Positions 1 through 25,057 of a stretch of DNA of 38,163 nucleotides are shown here, piece after piece. Every line of letters begins with the position of its first letter. Position 1 is the first letter of the stretch. The stretch lies in the NCBI GenBank assembly GCA_003251275.1, contig QKGJ01000134.1, positions 1 to 38,163 of the forward strand. Reading direction: 5' to 3'. A program made the position numbers and the translations under genes. This DNA comes from Ignavibacteria bacterium (lineage in GTDB: Bacteria > Bacteroidota > Ignavibacteria > UBA10030 > UBA6906). Below the pieces are notes generated by a model, which saw nothing but the letters and a program-made list of their open reading frames with translations, did not search any database and had not been told where the DNA came from.

Positions 1-99
1 TATGGTGATCACAAGGCCGGCGTAACCAATAATCATGCGCCTTCGAACTTCATCAGCACCGATATTACACTTGCCTGCAATGTATTGAGTATGTCCCAC
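1..99 (-). CDS. Partial (5' end only) hypothetical membrane protein, not in ORF track
   Basis: Minus-strand frame from GTG at 99 (or TTG at 111) is open to the window edge: VGHTQYIAGKCNIGADEVRRRMIIGYAGLVITI, a CNIG-x2-E-x-RRR segment followed by a hydrophobic helix. Confidence 0.6.
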   Translation of the reverse strand, partial: MGHTQYIAGKCNIGADEVRRRMIIGYAGLVITI

Positions 100-21136: not shown

Positions 21137-21718
21137 ATGGAGACCCTCCTCCTCGCGTTCATTCCTCTCTTTGTTGCGATTGATGTGTTCGGAGTTCTTC
21201 CCCTCTTCGTCGGTCTTACAGATCACCTCAGCGATCAGCAACACAGAGTACTGACGATCGAAGCAACGCTTACTGCGCTGACGATCTCGATCCTTTTTCT
21301 TGGACTGGGAGATCTTTTGTTCACCTTTCTTGGCATCACGGAAAATGACTTCCGTGTTGGCGGCGGGATTGTCTTGCTGGTTCTGGCAGTACAGGATTTG
21401 CTGTTTGCACGGGAGAGAAGAGGCGATGCAAAGGAACCGGTGGGTATCGTTCCCATAGGAATCCCGCTTATCATGGGACCTGCCGCCCTCACAACAATCA
21501 TTATCGTTAAAAATGAATATGGTTACGGATGGACGATTGCTTCATTGACAATCAATATGCTAATCGTCCTGATTGTCTTCCTTCAGGCGAAACGCATCAG
21601 CAGGGCGATGGGAAAAGCCGGCTCGCAGGCTGTCGCAAAGGTTGCCGCATTATTCCTAACCGGGATTGCCGTTTTCATGATCAGAAGCGGGATTGAGGGA
21701 ATGCTGCGACATAATTAG
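21137..21718 (+). CDS. MarC family membrane protein
   Basis: LFVAIDVFG..P.F, FRVGGGIVL, IVPIGIPLIMGPAALTT; six TM helices. Confidence 0.93.
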   Translation: METLLLAFIPLFVAIDVFGVLPLFVGLTDHLSDQQHRVLTIEATLTALTISILFLGLGDLLFTFLGITENDFRVGGGIVLLVLAVQDLLFARERRGDAKEPVGIVPIGIPLIMGPAALTTIIIVKNEYGYGWTIASLTINMLIVLIVFLQAKRISRAMGKAGSQAVAKVAALFLTGIAVFMIRSGIEGMLRHN

Positions 21719-22632
21719 ATCGCTTTCCTGAATTCCTCCGCCACCCCGAATCCCCACTCGTCTTTCAACACTGACCCACACTCAAGCAGGAATGGAAATA
21801 CAGCAGTTGTGGCAGGAGGAAGAGGTATTTGCTTGCCCTCCTGGACATGGGAGATGATTTGAAGTGCGTTTGCAACACCTTTTCCTTCCGGTGTGTTGTT
21901 GCAGATGACAATCACTTTCTCCACATCCCTTGCGAGAAGCTGAATACGACGGATGATTTCTCGCAGCTCTCGGACATTGTACAAGTAGGAATACCGGCTA
22001 TCCATCTCATTCGTTAGCCACCCCTTTTCGTTTCTTCCATGAAGCCGGACATACACAATATCACCAACCTGTCGCGTGAGACTCGGGATGAAATGGCTGA
22101 TGCGTGGTAAATCAGAGCTGACTGATCGAAGCTGGCAATCCTCCAGAAGGCGAACAATCGTGGATTGATCCCACGAGTCATGACGGAACTCTACGTGGAC
22201 GGGGAATCCGCGAAATAGCTCAGCGAGCTTTGTTAGATATTGCCGGTGACTGCTGGTGTTTGTGAACGCATACGGAAACTGCGCAAGAATTCCACCGAGC
22301 TTGTTCGACTGGAAGAATTCCTGCGCCACTTTACGGATCTTCCTCGCCCGGGTCGTGTTTAGATCCTTTCTGTGCGTCAAAGAGGAATGGAGCTTGAAAG
22401 TGAATTGAAACCGACCGTTCTGCTCCACTGCGGCAACCCATTGCCTTGCCTCTGCTTCGTTGATATCTTCATCCCAGAAGGTTGATCGTATCTCAGTTGC
22501 ATCAAAGAAGCGGGAATAGTAGCAAAGCTTTTCAATCGCATCAGCCTCCCCCATTTGATACAATGCCGCGTCAAACCCTTCGTGTTCCCATCCGCTCGTC
22601 CCAACAAACCAATTAGGTGATTTCGTCTTCAT
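21715..22632 (-). CDS. DUF72 (YecE-like) TIM-barrel protein
   Basis: VGTSGW, E.RSTF, LAQFP..F, VEFRH.SW, YVRLHGRN, Y.YLY, NN; GGAGG SD. Confidence 0.9.
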   Translation of the reverse strand: MKTKSPNWFVGTSGWEHEGFDAALYQMGEADAIEKLCYYSRFFDATEIRSTFWDEDINEAEARQWVAAVEQNGRFQFTFKLHSSLTHRKDLNTTRARKIRKVAQEFFQSNKLGGILAQFPYAFTNTSSHRQYLTKLAELFRGFPVHVEFRHDSWDQSTIVRLLEDCQLRSVSSDLPRISHFIPSLTRQVGDIVYVRLHGRNEKGWLTNEMDSRYSYLYNVRELREIIRRIQLLARDVEKVIVICNNTPEGKGVANALQIISHVQEGKQIPLPPATTAVFPFLLECGSVLKDEWGFGVAEEFRKAI

Positions 22633-22652
22633 GCAACCTCCCGAGAAAATGC

Positions 22653-22681
22653 TTGACAGAGTTGATTCAATTCCTTATCTT
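22653..22681 (+). promoter_or_regulatory. sigma70 promoter for the XRE-S24 repressor
   Basis: TTGACA 22653-58, 17-nt spacer, TATCTT 22676-81. Confidence 0.75.
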
Positions 22682-22689
22682 GCGCCGTC

Positions 22690-22718
22690 AAGATACGACA
22701 TAATTGTCGTCTTGTCAA
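22690..22718 (-). promoter_or_regulatory. sigma70 promoter for DUF72
   Basis: Minus strand TTGACA (22718-13), 17-nt spacer, TATCTT (22695-90). Confidence 0.75.
22695..22710. promoter_or_regulatory. Operator O1, palindrome ACGACA-TAAT-TGTCGT
   Basis: Perfect 6-bp inverted repeat filling the spacer of the DUF72 promoter. Confidence 0.7.
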
Positions 22719-22727
22719 GACCTTCTG

Positions 22728-22741
22728 CGACAAATGTGTCT
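22728..22741. promoter_or_regulatory. Operator O2, CGACA-AATG-TGTCT
   Basis: Second GACA-N4-TGTC copy, centred 32 bp from O1, just upstream of the repressor start. Confidence 0.6.
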
Positions 22742-22761
22742 TTCACTTTTACGGGGTGATC

Positions 22762-23412
22762 ATGAAATCTACCATAGGCGACCGTCTACGCGAAGCACGC
22801 GAGAACAAAGAATTGGACCAGTCCTCCCTTGCCGACAAGATCGGTGTTGCAACCCGGACAGTTCAGCGATGGGAAAAGGGGGAGCAGGTTCCCCATGGAG
22901 TTGCGATCAACAAGATCGCAAAGGCCACCAACGCCTCTCCTGCATGGCTTTTGACGGGATCCGGCCAAATGTATGAAGCCCCTTCGCGACCGAATAATGT
23001 GTACCCGCTGACCACATCATTTCGTCGCAAGATCAAGCTTGCAGACATTCCCCTCCTCTCCTCTGTCCCGGCGGGGAAGCTCGCGACGATTTTCCATTCC
23101 GATTATGCGGAGAGCTATGTTACCGTCGATGATGTCAAGGATCCGCAGGCCTTTGCGCTGAAGGTCAAAGGAAACAGCATGTCCCCGCGAATCGAGGATG
23201 GAGATATTGTAATTGTCAGTCCGCATGGAGAAGCCCGGAGCGGAGACATCTGCGTCGTCCGGGTGAACGATGAGGATACTCTGAAGAAGGTCAAGTTTGA
23301 GGGGAGTTATATCCACCTTATTCCTTTAAACCCGGAATTCGATCCAGTGACCGTAAAGAAAAAAGATGTGAATTTTGCCTGGAAAGTCGTTAAGCTGATA
23401 AAGGAATTATAG
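22762..23412 (+). CDS. XRE-family HTH + S24 peptidase repressor (CI/LexA-like, autocleavable)
   Basis: IGDRLREAR...LADKIGVATRTVQRWEKG HTH; VPAG cleavage site; VKGNSM catalytic Ser; DTLKK catalytic Lys; L.PLNP.F. ATG 22762 preferred over GTG 22756. Confidence 0.93.
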   Translation: MKSTIGDRLREARENKELDQSSLADKIGVATRTVQRWEKGEQVPHGVAINKIAKATNASPAWLLTGSGQMYEAPSRPNNVYPLTTSFRRKIKLADIPLLSSVPAGKLATIFHSDYAESYVTVDDVKDPQAFALKVKGNSMSPRIEDGDIVIVSPHGEARSGDICVVRVNDEDTLKKVKFEGSYIHLIPLNPEFDPVTVKKKDVNFAWKVVKLIKEL

Positions 23413-23434: not shown

Positions 23435-25057
23435 ATGAACCGATCTTCATCCAAGACTCTTGAATTGTTCGAGCCGTCCGACCTTCTTACACTCCGTGAG
23501 GCAAGCGACTGGGCATCGTCGTTCCTCCAGCGGAGCGTCTCAACATCCAACATCAGCTATCTCATCCAGTATGGAAGAGTATCGAGACATCGCGTTGCAG
23601 GCAGGACGAAAATCTCACAACGGGATTTGCAGAGATACTACGAAGGGCAGCACCTTCGACGAAAAGAATCGTGGAAGGATCAACTTGGAGATGATCTGAA
23701 CTGGCATCTGTCCTTCGAACATTTGCGGGAGATTCACACCACAAAGCATGTCCACCGTCTCCATCCATACAAGGGGAAATTCATCCCTCAACTTGTTGAG
23801 TATTTTTTGGACTCCCATACAGACGAGTTTAAGGAGGAAGCGATTTTCAAACCTGGGGACATCGTCCTCGATCCGTTCTGTGGGAGCGGGACGACCTTGG
23901 TTCAGGCAAACGAACTCGGACTTCACGCGATTGGCATTGATGTTTCGGCATTCAACACACTGCTCTCGAATGTGAAGGTCCATCGTTGCGAACTGCAATC
24001 GCTGGATCGGCACGTCCGGTCAATTACCGATTCATTGGAGAATTCAGCCGAGCATAAATCTATCAAAGTATTCGAGCAGGCTCTCCTGGGAGAGTTGTCC
24101 CGATTCAACGCGAAACACTTTCCAACGCCTGAGTTCAAGCAGAAAGTGCATCGCAAAGAGATTCCCGAAAAGGAGTTTGGTCAACGGAAGGCCGAGGAGT
24201 TTCTGCCGACCTATCACGAACTTCTTCGAAAACATAGCAGATACCTGAGTACGTCGGCGGCTGAGGGCTTTCTCGAGAGTTGGTATATCCCGAGTATTCT
24301 CACTGAAATCAAAAGAGCTTCAGAGGGGATTGCTTCGGTGAATGATCGATCTCTTCGAAATGTTCTTTTCCTGTTTTTGAGCAGAACAATTCGGTCGGCA
24401 CGTGCGACGACACATTCCGATCTCGCCACTCTTCATGAGCCACAAACTTCAACGTACTACTGCTCAAAACATAAGAAGATCTGCAAACCACTCTTTTCCA
24501 TCGTTGAAATGTGGAAGAAGTATTCTGCAGATGGCATGCAGCGCCTCGCAGCATTTAAGGAACTGCGGACGGACACCGAACAATTGTGTATTACTGCAGA
24601 CTCTCGGTCGGTTGATCTCCCATCAAATATTGACAGCAAGAATCCTCTGCTTGGCCGTCTGCTACGGGAGAAACAGATCCGGGGAATCTTCTCGAGTCCC
24701 CCCTACGTTGGTCTGATCGATTATCACGAGCAACATGCGTATGCGTATGAACTACTGGGATTGGAGCGAACGGATGATCTGGAGATTGGGGCAATGTCAA
24801 AAGGACACGGGCTCGATGCCCGCTCGTCATACGTTGAGGATATTGCTGCCGTCTTGCGTAACTCTCGCCAATGGGTGCGGAAGGGGTTCGATGTGTTCCT
24901 CGTCGCGAATGACAAGCATGGCCTCTACCCTGCGATCGCCGAAAAAGCCGGAATGACCATCGTGAAGTCGTTCAAGCGCCCCGTTTTGAATCGTGCAGAA
25001 GACAAGGGTGCGTACGCAGAGACGATATTCCATTTGCGCACAGCGACGGGAAATTAG
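23435..25057 (+). CDS. Amino-DNA methyltransferase, probably N4-cytosine, with N-terminal HTH-like domain
   Basis: HRLHPYKGKFIPQLV, motif I LDPFCGSGTT preceding motif IV SSPPY; N-terminal LLTLREAS.WAS...SNISYLIQYGRV. Confidence 0.88.
   Translation: MNRSSSKTLELFEPSDLLTLREASDWASSFLQRSVSTSNISYLIQYGRVSRHRVAGRTKISQRDLQRYYEGQHLRRKESWKDQLGDDLNWHLSFEHLREIHTTKHVHRLHPYKGKFIPQLVEYFLDSHTDEFKEEAIFKPGDIVLDPFCGSGTTLVQANELGLHAIGIDVSAFNTLLSNVKVHRCELQSLDRHVRSITDSLENSAEHKSIKVFEQALLGELSRFNAKHFPTPEFKQKVHRKEIPEKEFGQRKAEEFLPTYHELLRKHSRYLSTSAAEGFLESWYIPSILTEIKRASEGIASVNDRSLRNVLFLFLSRTIRSARATTHSDLATLHEPQTSTYYCSKHKKICKPLFSIVEMWKKYSADGMQRLAAFKELRTDTEQLCITADSRSVDLPSNIDSKNPLLGRLLREKQIRGIFSSPPYVGLIDYHEQHAYAYELLGLERTDDLEIGAMSKGHGLDARSSYVEDIAAVLRNSRQWVRKGFDVFLVANDKHGLYPAIAEKAGMTIVKSFKRPVLNRAEDKGAYAETIFHLRTATGN

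What the first reader, a model, noticed from the sequence alone, without database searches (positions are those of the whole stretch)
21715..23412. Candidate non-canonical LexA/SOS switch with its own GACA-N4-TGTC box, divergent to DUF72
Seen: a repressor with a phage-type XRE HTH and an intact S24 autoprotease (Ala-Gly site in VPAG, Ser in GNSM, Lys in TLKK). It sits among housekeeping genes with no cro, integrase or phage gene nearby, divergent from DUF72, with two GACA-N4-TGTC palindromes between them. Established: S24 repressors self-cleave on RecA filaments; DUF72 genes are often linked to DNA-damage cassettes; Bacteroidetes use non-canonical XRE-S24 LexA proteins (my recollection is a GGA-N5-TCC box; verify). 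Inference: this lineage has a separately recruited SOS repressor with a different box, and DUF72 is its damage-inducible target.
Basis: partly seen in the sequence, partly recalled or inferred. Interest (0 to 1): 0.85.

Follow-up and report, generated by a model that had tools for sequence, protein, structure and literature searches.

The report
Phage-type repressor replacing LexA in Ignavibacteria
A chromosomal repressor built like a phage CI protein seems to have taken over LexA's job in one order of Ignavibacteria, using its own DNA box to switch off itself, DUF72 genes and an error-prone DNA polymerase operon.

Summary
Window 22762-23412(+) encodes a 216-aa HTH_3 + Peptidase_S24 protein with Ala104-Gly105, Ser139 and Lys175 aligned to the E. 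coli LexA cleavage site and catalytic dyad. It lies divergent to DUF72. The only two GACA-N4-TGTC boxes in the 38-kb window lie between the two genes.

Comparative evidence carries the case. The protein is a single-copy orthologue (52-97% identity) in 32 of 41 relatives and is confined to one order. 79 of 80 orthologous loci keep the box. A second box with at most one mismatch follows in 71 of 78.

The same operator pair precedes a dinB-DUF72-iRadA-PPB2-PolB2 translesion operon on another contig of this genome. An exact box precedes such operons in 17 of 32 orthologue-bearing relatives.

Sister orders, and the few order-mates without the protein, carry canonical LexA, sometimes beside DUF72 or the PolB2 operon. 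Those loci lack the box. The canonical LexA in this bin sits on a 3.3-kb contig and looks foreign.

Best reading (about 0.7): a non-canonical LexA analogue governing a small SOS-like mutagenesis regulon. Binding, RecA-stimulated cleavage and damage induction are inferred, not shown. It is a new variant of a known kind.

The parts
22762..23412 (+). XRE(HTH_3)-Peptidase_S24 repressor, 216 aa (the ORF could also start at GTG 22756). HTH about residues 9-63; S24 domain about residues 97-204.
   Evidence: Pfam. Most orthologues are 216 aa. The HTH block TRTxQRWEKGEQ is invariant in 27 of 27 orthologues.
23071..23076 (+). Codons for Ala104-Gly105, the predicted self-cleavage site.
   Evidence: Aligns with Ala-Gly of E. 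coli LexA; translation check. Gly105 is invariant. Residue 104 is Ala in 20 and Gly in 7 of 27 orthologues.
23176..23178 (+). Codon for Ser139, the predicted nucleophile (GNSM).
   Evidence: Aligns with the GmSM serine of LexA; invariant in 27 of 27.
23284..23286 (+). Codon for Lys175, the predicted general base (TLKK).
   Evidence: Aligns with the tvKr lysine of LexA; invariant in 27 of 27.
22653..22681 (+). Promoter-like site for the repressor gene: TTGACA-17-TATCTT.
   Evidence: Consensus scan, 10 of 12 matches. In 72 of 78 orthologous loci the same type of site is followed by O1 within 25 nt.
22693..22712 (.). Operator O1, ATACGACATAATTGTCGTCT (core GACA-TAAT-TGTC at 22697-22708).
   Evidence: Top PWM hit in the genome, 26.9 bits. 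Conserved at 79 of 80 orthologous loci.
22690..22718 (-). Promoter-like site for DUF72: TTGACA-17-TATCTT on the minus strand, with O1 inside the spacer.
   Evidence: Consensus scan. The minus-strand TTGACA 4 nt after O1 is present in 52 of 52 loci with a divergent DUF72 and in 3 of 26 without.
22729..22740 (.). Operator O2, GACA-AATG-TGTC, 32 bp from O1 and just upstream of the DUF72 -35.
   Evidence: 15.1 bits. A second box with at most 1 core mismatch lies 29-34 nt after the first in 71 of 78 loci.
21715..22632 (-). DUF72 family gene (305 aa), the divergent predicted target.
   Evidence: Pfam DUF72, E 5.6e-42. Divergent partner in 52 of 80 orthologous loci.
23435..25057 (+). Type II DNA methyltransferase, 22 bases after the repressor's stop codon on the same strand. 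A genus-specific insertion and not part of the conserved system; it may be co-transcribed.
   Evidence: PADLOC PDLC03249, E 5e-201; Pfam N6_N4_Mtase. Present only in the window and L025 of 80 loci, plus one weak 37% fragment in L047.

Best explanation
The gene encodes a chromosomal lambda-CI-type repressor (HTH_3 + S24 self-cleaving domain). In one order of Ignavibacteria it stands where LexA stands in sister lineages.

Proposed mechanism:
1. Dimers bind the palindrome GACA-W4-TGTC. The strong form is ATACGACAwwwwTGTCGT.
2. Two boxes lie three helical turns apart in the window. O1 sits in the spacer of the DUF72 promoter and just downstream of the repressor's own -10. O2 sits just upstream of the DUF72 -35. 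One operator pair therefore shuts both divergent promoters, giving autoregulation plus DUF72 repression.
3. The same O2/-35/O1/-10 module controls a translesion operon elsewhere in the genome: dinB, a diverged DUF72, iRadA, PPB2 and PolB2.
4. After DNA damage, RecA filaments would stimulate self-cleavage at Ala104-Gly105 by Ser139/Lys175. The DNA-binding domain is released and this small SOS-like mutagenesis regulon is derepressed.

Shown here: domains and catalytic residues; conservation and placement of the boxes; the content of the regulon; the lineage distribution against canonical LexA.

Inferred: that this protein is the one that binds the box; cooperative binding; RecA-dependent cleavage; damage induction.
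For: Protein:
- HTH_3 + Peptidase_S24.
- Cleavage site and Ser/Lys dyad align with E. coli LexA. There is also a full-length match to lambda repressor 3bdn.
- Gly105, Ser139 and Lys175 are invariant in 27 of 27 orthologues of 59-78% identity. So is an 11-residue block of the recognition region (R32 T33, Q35-Q42), matching the invariant GACA/TGTC half-sites.

Vertical, order-wide gene:
- A full-length orthologue is present in 32 of 41 relatives.
- In a 301-genome phylum sample, the 22 genomes with a hit at E 1.9e-77 or better all belong to the own order. The next hit is 1.7e-16 and covers the S24 domain only.

Cis elements at the gene:
- 79 of 80 loci have at least one box within 600 nt upstream. 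55 have two exact boxes, spaced 31-33 bp in 54 of them.
- 71 of 78 have a second box with at most 1 mismatch, and 72 of 78 have TTGACn-16..18-TAnnnT just before O1.
- The box spacer is 519 A/T out of 536 bases.
- The DUF72 -35 co-occurs with DUF72 adjacency: 52 of 52 against 3 of 26.

Regulon:
- In this genome the PWM gives 26.9, 26.9 and 22.6 bits for window O1 and the C214 pair; the next hit is 17.0.
- C214 carries dinB (NCBIfam Pol IV, 297.9 bits against a 256 cut-off), a diverged DUF72, a RadA-fold protein, a 96-aa ORF starting MGRT, and a B-family polymerase. Its promoter also has O1 in the spacer.
- CGACAWWWWTGTCG gives 66 sites in 37 of 41 relatives, against 5 for the reversed control. 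24 sites lie at the repressor gene.
- Of the 40 other loci examined, 20 lie directly upstream of dinB, iRadA-PolB2, DUF72b or DUF72a, and 6 lie upstream of small conserved proteins.
- The 16-mer ACGACAWWWWTGTCGT occurs in 11 of 17 genomes of the own order and 2 of 134 of other orders. The control gives 1 of 17 and 8 of 134.

LexA displacement:
- In all 31 other orthologue-bearing relatives, a LexA query hits only the orthologue's own S24 domain.
- The two order-mates with a full-length LexA hit (G028, G030) lack the orthologue.
- The best S24 hits in 7 of 7 examined genomes of other orders are canonical LexA.
- In G028, G319 and G142 the LexA-type gene lies beside DUF72 and/or iRadA. 0 of 5 such loci contain GACA-N4-TGTC.

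Literature: PolB2 operon neighbourhoods in bacteria are enriched in lexA and DUF72, and archaeal PolB2 operons are damage-induced (passages of PMC11791011).
Against: - No experiment or expression data. No RNA run holds the locus, so binding, cleavage and induction are all inferred.
- A canonical LexA gene is present in the bin (C87). If it is native, this protein would be a secondary regulator.
- G010 (98% complete) has no S24 protein, no orthologue and no DUF72a. It still keeps a perfect O1 and -35 upstream of a Cys-rich-DUF72b-iRadA operon. The box can therefore persist without this protein, or another factor binds it.
- 7 of 27 orthologues have Gly-Gly instead of Ala-Gly at the cleavage site.
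- The regulon lacks classic SOS genes. No site of 12 bits or more lies on the recA contig C108, and most of the 31 weaker PWM hits that I inspected lie inside ORFs.
- In 15 of 32 orthologue-bearing relatives no exact 14-mer was seen at a polymerase operon. Many of these genomes are fragmented, and imperfect sites were not scored.
Confidence: 0.7

Rival explanations
1. Secondary, cassette-specific repressor. A canonical LexA (C87 in this bin) runs the general SOS response. The XRE-S24 protein only gates the mutagenesis cassette and DUF72, as LexA2, HdiR or UmuDAb do elsewhere.
For: A LexA_DNA_bind + S24 gene is in the bin. The box regulon is restricted to polymerases, DUF72 and small proteins. 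HdiR of Streptococcus uberis and UmuDAb control only mutagenic cassettes (passages of PMC8565304).
Against: C87 is a 3.3-kb contig. Its LexA's nearest named relatives are a Spirochaetaceae MAG (79%) and Desulfosarcina 'LexA repressor 2' (63-65%), none of them Ignavibacteria or Bacteroidota. The same-genus genome G001 (100% complete) and all 30 other orthologue-bearing relatives show no LexA-like S24 protein other than the orthologue.
Confidence: 0.1
2. The GACA-W4-TGTC box is bound by a different, unidentified factor. The XRE-S24 gene is just one more member of that factor's regulon.
For: G010 keeps the operator and the overlapping promoter with no detectable S24 protein or orthologue. G011 also has a flanked box without the orthologue, but that genome is only 81% complete.
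Against: The box distribution follows the protein. The 16-mer is in 4 of 4 genomes of family f1 (G000 included) and 4 of 7 of f8, both orthologue-bearing families, against 2 of 134 genomes of other orders. Two boxes sit at the protein's own promoter in most loci, the usual mark of autoregulation. The recognition region is invariant along with the half-sites. LexA-bearing order-mates lack the box at the equivalent loci, 0 of 5.
Confidence: 0.08
3. The repressor answers a signal other than RecA filaments (another protease, pH, a partner protein) or does not cleave at all. The link to DNA damage would then be only through its targets.
For: 7 of 27 orthologues carry Gly-Gly at the cleavage position. 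HdiR needs Clp processing in addition to cleavage (passage of PMC8565304). No induction data exist.
Against: Ser139, Lys175 and Gly105 are invariant across the order. A RecA gene is present. The targets are translesion polymerases whose homologues are damage-induced elsewhere.
Confidence: 0.09
4. Relic prophage immunity repressor, or a controller of the adjacent methyltransferase (a C-protein-like role).
For: CI-type architecture, with full-length 32-34% matches to phage repressors. A Type II methyltransferase follows directly.
Against: The methyltransferase is present only in the own genus, in 2 of 80 loci. The 15 window ORFs scanned gave no integrase or phage family. The gene is single-copy, syntenic and 52-97% identical across an order. 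A second target operon lies on another contig.
Confidence: 0.03

Closest known systems
Non-canonical LexA of the Bacteroidetes (Sanchez-Osuna et al. 2021, PMC8565304; abstract and passages read)
   Same: Chromosomal HTH_3 (CI-like) + S24 repressor with the Ala-Gly site and Ser/Lys dyad. It is autoregulated through a short dyad-spacer palindrome, often in two copies, controls dinB-type polymerases, and occurs in lineages without canonical LexA.
   Different: The box is GACA-W4-TGTC (4-bp arms, 4-bp A/T spacer) rather than GGA-N5-TCC, CTAA-N5-TTAG or TTAC-N5-GTAA. The orthologue group is confined to one Ignavibacteria order with no close relative elsewhere in the phylum sample. The paper's main text does not mention Ignavibacteria or DUF72. 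The regulon centres on a PolB2 mutasome and DUF72 paralogues, and recA was not found in it. Common ancestry was not tested, because no reference sequences were on hand.
HdiR (Lactococcus/Streptococcus) and UmuDAb (Acinetobacter), as described in passages of PMC8565304
   Same: S24 self-cleaving repressors that are not LexA. They control themselves and mainly a mutagenic polymerase cassette.
   Different: Different lineages, boxes and targets (umuC/umuDC rather than dinB + PolB2 + DUF72). Homology to them was not tested here.
Phage lambda CI / P22 C2 type repressors
   Same: Same two-domain architecture. PDB sequence matches: lambda repressor 3bdn over residues 17-197 (E 3e-10) and the P22 C2 N-terminal domain (E 5e-7). 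Two operators about three turns apart suggest cooperative dimers.
   Different: Not in a prophage. It is a vertically inherited, syntenic host gene, and its targets are host repair genes. Best phage identity is 32-34%. In the S24-domain tree it is a clade of its own (94/95), apart from the three phage rows.
Canonical LexA (TIGR00498; PF01726 + PF00717)
   Same: S24 domain, cleavage site and dyad. Autoregulation and control of translesion polymerases. It occupies the same genomic company as canonical LexA in order-mates: DUF72 in G028, the iRadA operon in G319 and G142.
   Different: No LexA winged-helix domain. It scores 73.7 bits against the 110.95 cut-off, over the C-terminal half only. The box is different.
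Bacterial PolB2 mutasome operon iRadA-PPB2-PolB2 (Timinskas et al. 2025, PMC11791011; abstract and passages read)
   Same: The second target operon has the published gene order iRadA-PPB2-PolB2. The PPB2 candidate starts MGRT. DUF72 is alongside, which the paper reports as enriched near polB2.
   Different: Here the operon is headed by dinB and carries the GACA box instead of an adjacent lexA. The paper's supplementary operon tables could not be opened, so I cannot say whether Ignavibacteria operons are listed there.

Membership tests
Canonical LexA (TIGR00498 / PF01726+PF00717) | N-terminal LexA winged-helix DNA-binding domain (PF01726) | tested here: not met
   Pfam finds HTH_3, HTH_31 and Phage_CI_repr but no PF01726. 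NCBIfam lexA scores 73.7 bits against a 110.95 cut-off and matches only residues 91-215.
Canonical LexA (TIGR00498 / PF01726+PF00717) | S24 domain with an Ala-Gly cleavage site and Ser/Lys dyad | tested here: met
   Ser139, Lys175 and Gly105 are invariant in 27 of 27 orthologues; residue 104 is Ala in 20 of 27.
Canonical LexA (TIGR00498 / PF01726+PF00717) | RecA-filament-stimulated self-cleavage and damage induction of the regulon | not testable with these tools
   No RNA run holds the locus. No biochemical data.
Non-canonical LexA of Bacteroidetes (PMC8565304) | HTH_3/CI-like N-terminal domain fused to an S24 domain with conserved cleavage determinants, chromosomal | tested here: met
   Syntenic chromosomal context in 52 of 80 loci.
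Non-canonical LexA of Bacteroidetes (PMC8565304) | Binds GGA-N5-TCC or CTAA-N5-TTAG (or the TTAC-N5-GTAA variant) in its own promoter | tested here: not met
   None of the three patterns occurs in window 22400-23000. GACA-N4-TGTC occurs twice.
Non-canonical LexA of Bacteroidetes (PMC8565304) | Controls a DNA-damage-type regulon (dinB, umuDC, imuAB-dnaE2, recA and others) | tested here: inconclusive
   The box precedes dinB, the PolB2 mutasome and DUF72 genes. No site of 12 bits or more was found on the recA contig. Induction is untested.
Non-canonical LexA of Bacteroidetes (PMC8565304) | Membership of the same phylogenetic clade as WP_075324850.1 / WP_025606010.1 | not tested
   The reference sequences could not be fetched. 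The phylum sample shows only 30-34% full-length relatives in one Bacteroidota family. One of these (L194) carries none of the known boxes.
Phage CI/C2 immunity repressor | CI-type HTH + S24 architecture | tested here: met
   Pfam Phage_CI_repr, E 1.1e-7. Matches to lambda repressor and P22 C2.
Phage CI/C2 immunity repressor | Encoded in a prophage beside cro, integrase or lysis genes, and controls phage promoters | tested here: not met
   The 15 window ORFs scanned gave no phage family. Host synteny is conserved. The targets are host genes.
PolB2 mutasome operon (second target, contig C214) | Gene order iRadA-PPB2-PolB2, with an inactivated RadA homologue and a small helical PPB2 starting MGRT | tested here: met
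   ORF265 model (pLDDT 75) matches Rad51/DMC1/RadA folds at E about 1e-9. Its conserved 'PPGKL' stands where I expect the Walker A motif; that assignment is by eye and recalled, not tested. The 96-aa ORF starts GTG-GGA-AGA-ACC after an AGGAGG. The polymerase matches archaeal-type B-family models. Definition taken from PMC11791011.

The most novel reading that the evidence does not exclude
In most families of one Ignavibacteria order, a CI-type repressor displaced canonical LexA at its old post beside DUF72 and is now the only RecA-responsive regulator.

The SOS response of these bacteria would then be a minimal mutagenesis and repair module: DinB, an archaeal-derived PolB2 mutasome, up to three DUF72 paralogues, and small Cys-rich or coiled-coil proteins that may act as checkpoint factors.

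This would be a third, independently evolved operator code for a non-canonical LexA. It would be the first regulator assigned to the bacterial PolB2 mutasome. It would also be regulatory evidence that DUF72 is a DNA-damage repair enzyme.
Probability: 0.45. Interest if true: 0.72.

Novelty: new variant of a known kind. Interest (0 to 1): 0.62.

Why it matters
- It extends the idea that SOS control has been re-invented with phage-type S24 repressors. That has been shown for Bacteroidetes. Here it reaches a neighbouring, little-studied lineage, with a new and very well-defined box.
- It offers a natural experiment. Order-mates keep canonical LexA beside the same genes.
- It gives the bacterial PolB2 mutasome, so far known only from in silico work, a predicted damage-responsive switch that can be tested with one protein and two promoters.
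- It ties three DUF72 paralogues to a repair regulon. That makes the long-open question of DUF72 function experimentally approachable.
- Annotation pipelines already call these proteins 'repressor LexA', 'XRE family' or 'S24 peptidase'. I found no paper on an SOS system in Ignavibacteria or on this box. One search listed 3 papers, none on the topic; I read passages of one of them. One search found 2 papers and listed one, which concerns MutR of Streptococcus mutans.

Tried and rejected
- Prophage or methyltransferase-controller reading: rejected, see rivals.
- PADLOC. The repressor matches only generic HTH models; DUF72 and DUF1015 match nothing.
- Expression. The look-up of sequencing runs listed no RNA holder.
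- Wider regulon in this genome. Of 35 PWM hits at 12 bits or more, only 4 lie in the two promoter regions. Of the 12 other hits I inspected, 9 lie inside long ORFs. One intergenic hit (C50:4119, 17.0 bits) was not followed up.
- The small box-linked proteins of relatives (coiled-coil 64-66 aa, Cys-rich 80-85 aa) have no tblastn match in this genome at E <= 0.01.
- DUF72a against the operon's DUF72-like protein: no pairwise BLAST similarity. The link rests on Pfam hits in 14 of 14 family members and a weak top fold match to the DUF72 structure 1vpy (E 2e-4, TM 0.46).
- Origin of the protein. In the S24-domain tree of 26 rows, the orthologues form one clade (94/95), separate from 11 LexA rows and 3 phage rows. 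The deep order is unresolved. One phage row (Acinetobacter phage 4316) was left out because it has no G.SM motif.
- L194, a 34%-identical XRE-S24 of another Bacteroidota family, has none of the published boxes upstream. I could not identify bona fide Bacteroidetes non-canonical LexA sequences to compare.
- Complex prediction, the search of protein representatives and the protein-atlas search were not used. The look-up of encoding contigs was not called (closed).
They may list Ignavibacteria regulators or PolB2 operons, and so bear on the novelty claim.

Full report
**What is in the window**

ORF 22756-23412(+) carries HTH_3, Phage_CI_repr and Peptidase_S24 domains. The divergent ORF 21715-22632(-) is DUF72. 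Most orthologues are 216 aa and an ATG at 22762 follows GGGGTG, so I take 22762 as the start.

HMMER alignment to E. coli LexA structures puts Ala104-Gly105 on the LexA cleavage site, Ser139 on the nucleophile and Lys175 on the general base. There is also a full-length match to lambda repressor and an N-terminal match to P22 C2. NCBIfam's lexA model is missed (73.7 against 110.95 bits, C-terminal half only). It is therefore a CI-type, not a LexA-type, S24 repressor.

The only two GACANNNNTGTC sites of the window, 22697 and 22729, lie between the two genes. A consensus scan finds two sigma-70-like promoters, both TTGACA-17-TATCTT. One is on the plus strand (22653-22681), ahead of O1. The other is on the minus strand (22718-22690), with O1 exactly in its spacer and O2 just upstream of its -35.

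It occurs only in the own genus. The ten further window ORFs I scanned gave only ordinary cellular families, or none.

**Lineage and conservation**

Relatives are MAGs labelled Ignavibacteriota, Ignavibacteria or Bacteroidota.
- A full-length orthologue (52-97% identity, one per genome) is present in 32 of 41 relatives.
- In a 301-genome phylum sample, the 22 genomes with a hit at E 1.9e-77 or better all belong to the own order. The next hit is 1.7e-16 and covers the S24 domain only.
- Among 80 fetched loci, 52 have DUF72 divergent to the gene.
- 79 of 80 have at least one GACA-N4-TGTC within 600 nt upstream. The exception is truncated by its contig end.
- 55 have two exact boxes, spaced 31-33 bp in 54 of them.
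- 71 of 78 have a second box with at most one core mismatch, and 72 of 78 have a TTGACn-16..18-TAnnnT promoter immediately before O1.
- The spacer is almost purely A/T, 519 of 536 bases, so the box is GACA-W4-TGTC. O1 has the consensus ATACGACAwwwwTGTCGTCT.
- A minus-strand TTGACA 4 nt after O1 is present in all 52 loci with a divergent DUF72 and in 3 of 26 without. Two of those three are cut by contig ends. This is an internal control showing that O1 belongs to the DUF72 promoter.
- In an alignment of 27 orthologues (59-78% identity), the recognition region TRTxQRWEKGEQ, Gly105, Ser139 and Lys175 are invariant. Residue 104 is Ala in 20 and Gly in 7.

**Regulon**

In the window's own genome (3.38 Mb, 94.6% complete), GACAWWWWTGTC occurs 6 times against 3.1 expected. 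A PWM built from the orthologous sites gives 26.9, 26.9 and 22.6 bits for window O1 and for two sites 30 bp apart on contig C214. The next hit is 17.0 bits.

The C214 pair lies upstream of a minus-strand operon with these genes:
- dinB (Pfam IMS; NCBIfam Pol IV above cut-off).
- A diverged DUF72. It is below the Pfam cut-off itself, but 14 of 14 family members match DUF72, and the top fold hit is the DUF72 structure 1vpy.
- A 265-aa protein with no Pfam family. Its AlphaFold model (pLDDT 75) matches Rad51/DMC1/RadA.
- A 96-aa ORF that starts MGRT after a strong ribosome-binding site.
- An archaeal-type B-family polymerase.

The last three genes form the iRadA-PPB2-PolB2 mutasome operon described in silico by Timinskas et al. 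2025. That paper also reports enrichment of lexA and DUF72 near bacterial polB2 (passages of PMC11791011). The operon's promoter is again TTGACA-17-TATCTT with O1 in the spacer.

Across 41 relatives, CGACAWWWWTGTCG gives 66 sites in 37 genomes, against 5 for the reversed control. 24 sites are at the repressor gene. The 40 other loci divide as follows:
- 8 directly upstream of dinB, often after a Cys-rich 80-aa gene
- 7 upstream of iRadA(-PolB2)
- 2 upstream of DUF72b-iRadA
- 3 upstream of DUF72a
- 4 upstream of a 64-66-aa coiled-coil protein
- 2 upstream of the Cys-rich gene alone
- 2 with the flank but an unclear target
- 12 without the ACGACA/TGTCGT flank and with no recognisable target, probably chance or hairpins

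Thus 17 of 32 orthologue-bearing genomes show an exact box at a translesion operon.

The 16-mer ACGACAWWWWTGTCGT is in 11 of 17 sampled genomes of the own order but in 2 of 134 of the other orders of the class. The reversed control gives 1 of 17 and 8 of 134. No site of 12 bits or more lies on the recA contig, so the regulon is small.

**Relation to canonical LexA**

The bin does contain a LexA_DNA_bind + S24 gene, at the end of the 3.3-kb contig C87. Its closest named relatives are a Spirochaetaceae MAG (79%) and Desulfosarcina 'LexA repressor 2' (63-65%).

With that protein as query, the only match in each of the 31 other orthologue-bearing relatives is the orthologue's own S24 domain. Full-length LexA is found only in G028 and G030, which lack the orthologue.

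The best S24 hits in 7 of 7 examined genomes of other orders are canonical LexA, as are those of G028 and G319. In G028 the lexA gene is followed by a DUF72 gene and lies 1.8 kb from iRadA. In G319 and G142 the LexA-type gene abuts iRadA (Pfam-checked for G319, not for G142). None of these 5 loci has a GACA-N4-TGTC box, and three of the lexA promoters carry other palindromes, one of them CTGT-N8-ACAG.

The simplest reading is that the CI-type protein replaced LexA in most families of this order while keeping its targets. An S24-domain tree shows the orthologues as their own clade (94/95). They are not nested in LexA or among three phage repressors, and the deeper order is unresolved. The best phage repressors are 32-34% identical. 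'Separately recruited' therefore stays open.

**Mechanism**

Shown:
- The architecture and catalytic residues.
- A conserved operator pair overlapping both divergent promoters.
- The same module at a translesion operon.
- Co-distribution of box and protein.
- Complementary distribution with LexA.

Inferred:
- Dimers of this protein bind the boxes, cooperatively across three helical turns.
- RecA filaments trigger cleavage at Ala104-Gly105.
- DUF72, the repressor itself and the dinB-PolB2 operon are damage-induced.

**Points against**
- No expression or biochemical data.
- The C87 LexA, if native, would make this protein a secondary regulator.
- G010 (98% complete) has no S24 protein, no orthologue and no DUF72a. 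It still retains O1 and its promoter before a Cys-rich-DUF72b-iRadA operon.
- 7 of 27 orthologues have Gly-Gly at the cleavage site.
- Classic SOS genes are absent from the regulon.

**Comparison and novelty**

The system works like the non-canonical LexA of Bacteroidetes and like HdiR and UmuDAb (PMC8565304; passages). It uses a different box, lies in a lineage that the paper's main text does not mention, and governs a different core regulon.

Pipelines already name the protein 'repressor LexA', 'XRE family' or 'S24 peptidase'. My searches found no paper on an Ignavibacteria SOS system or on this box.

I rate it a new variant of a known kind, with interest 0.62.

Noticed in passing
window 23435-25057 (+): A full-length Type II DNA methyltransferase (PADLOC PDLC03249, E 5e-201) with no restriction enzyme beside it. 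It is inserted between the repressor and DUF1015 only in this genus (window and L025). It starts 22 bases after the repressor's stop codon, so it may be co-transcribed and therefore under the same switch.
   Followed up: partly
G000 contig C87:2722-3318 (-) (locus L001): A canonical LexA at the end of a 3.3-kb contig. Nearest named relatives are a Spirochaetaceae MAG (79%) and Desulfosarcina 'LexA repressor 2'. It is followed by a 388-aa protein that I did not search. Probably mis-binned or mobile.
   Followed up: partly
G000 contig C11:1206-2120 (-) (locus L003): A third S24 protein in the bin, 304 aa, whose N-terminal part looks XRE-like by eye (not searched). It sits on a very long branch in the S24 tree. 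Context not analysed.
   Followed up: no
L134 (G010:C6:84254-87267): A near-complete relative has no S24 protein, no orthologue and no DUF72a. It still has an intact O1 and overlapping promoter before a Cys-rich 80-aa gene, DUF72b and iRadA. Either the repressor was lost recently or another factor binds.
   Followed up: partly
L146:377-568, L126:1542-1739, L149:2768-2959; L140:2710-2964, L143:3051-3293, L134:1149-1391: Two families of small proteins sit directly behind flanked boxes in relatives. One is a 64-66-aa coiled-coil protein. The other is an 80-85-aa Cys-rich protein that often heads the dinB operon. Neither was found in this genome by tblastn. They may be checkpoint or accessory factors.
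   Followed up: partly
L160 and L205 (G028:C74:27250-33241); L206 (G319:C19): In order-mates that keep canonical LexA, lexA lies next to a DUF72 gene and near iRadA (G028) or directly upstream of iRadA (G319). An ORF after the G028 DUF72 looks like an SRAP peptidase by eye (not searched). The lexA promoters carry palindromes unlike the GACA box.
   Followed up: partly
L150:968-2832 (G002); G000 C309:19734-21844: A third DUF72 paralogue (about 336 aa, clear Pfam DUF72) follows a multi-pass membrane protein and is transcribed divergently from the boxed dinB operon in G002, with a similar layout in G010. In this genome the pair sits at a contig end, so its promoter is not visible.
   Followed up: partly
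G013:C98:9910-10479: The orthologue in this relative is shortened (residues 29-218 only) and has two in-frame TGA codons. It is possibly a pseudogene or an assembly error.
   Followed up: no
L113 (G029), L158 (G030); G158:C31:3510 and C124:3236: A longer palindrome of the type CCACGACATTTATGTCGTGG recurs in genomes that lack the orthologue. It contains the box by sequence but looks like a hairpin or repeat element rather than an operator.
   Followed up: no
L105:5739-8942 (-) (G000 C214): A 1067-aa, extremely E/K/R-rich coiled-coil protein with weak TPR hits lies directly upstream of the boxed dinB operon on the same strand. It is conserved in the same-genus genome (L139).
   Followed up: no
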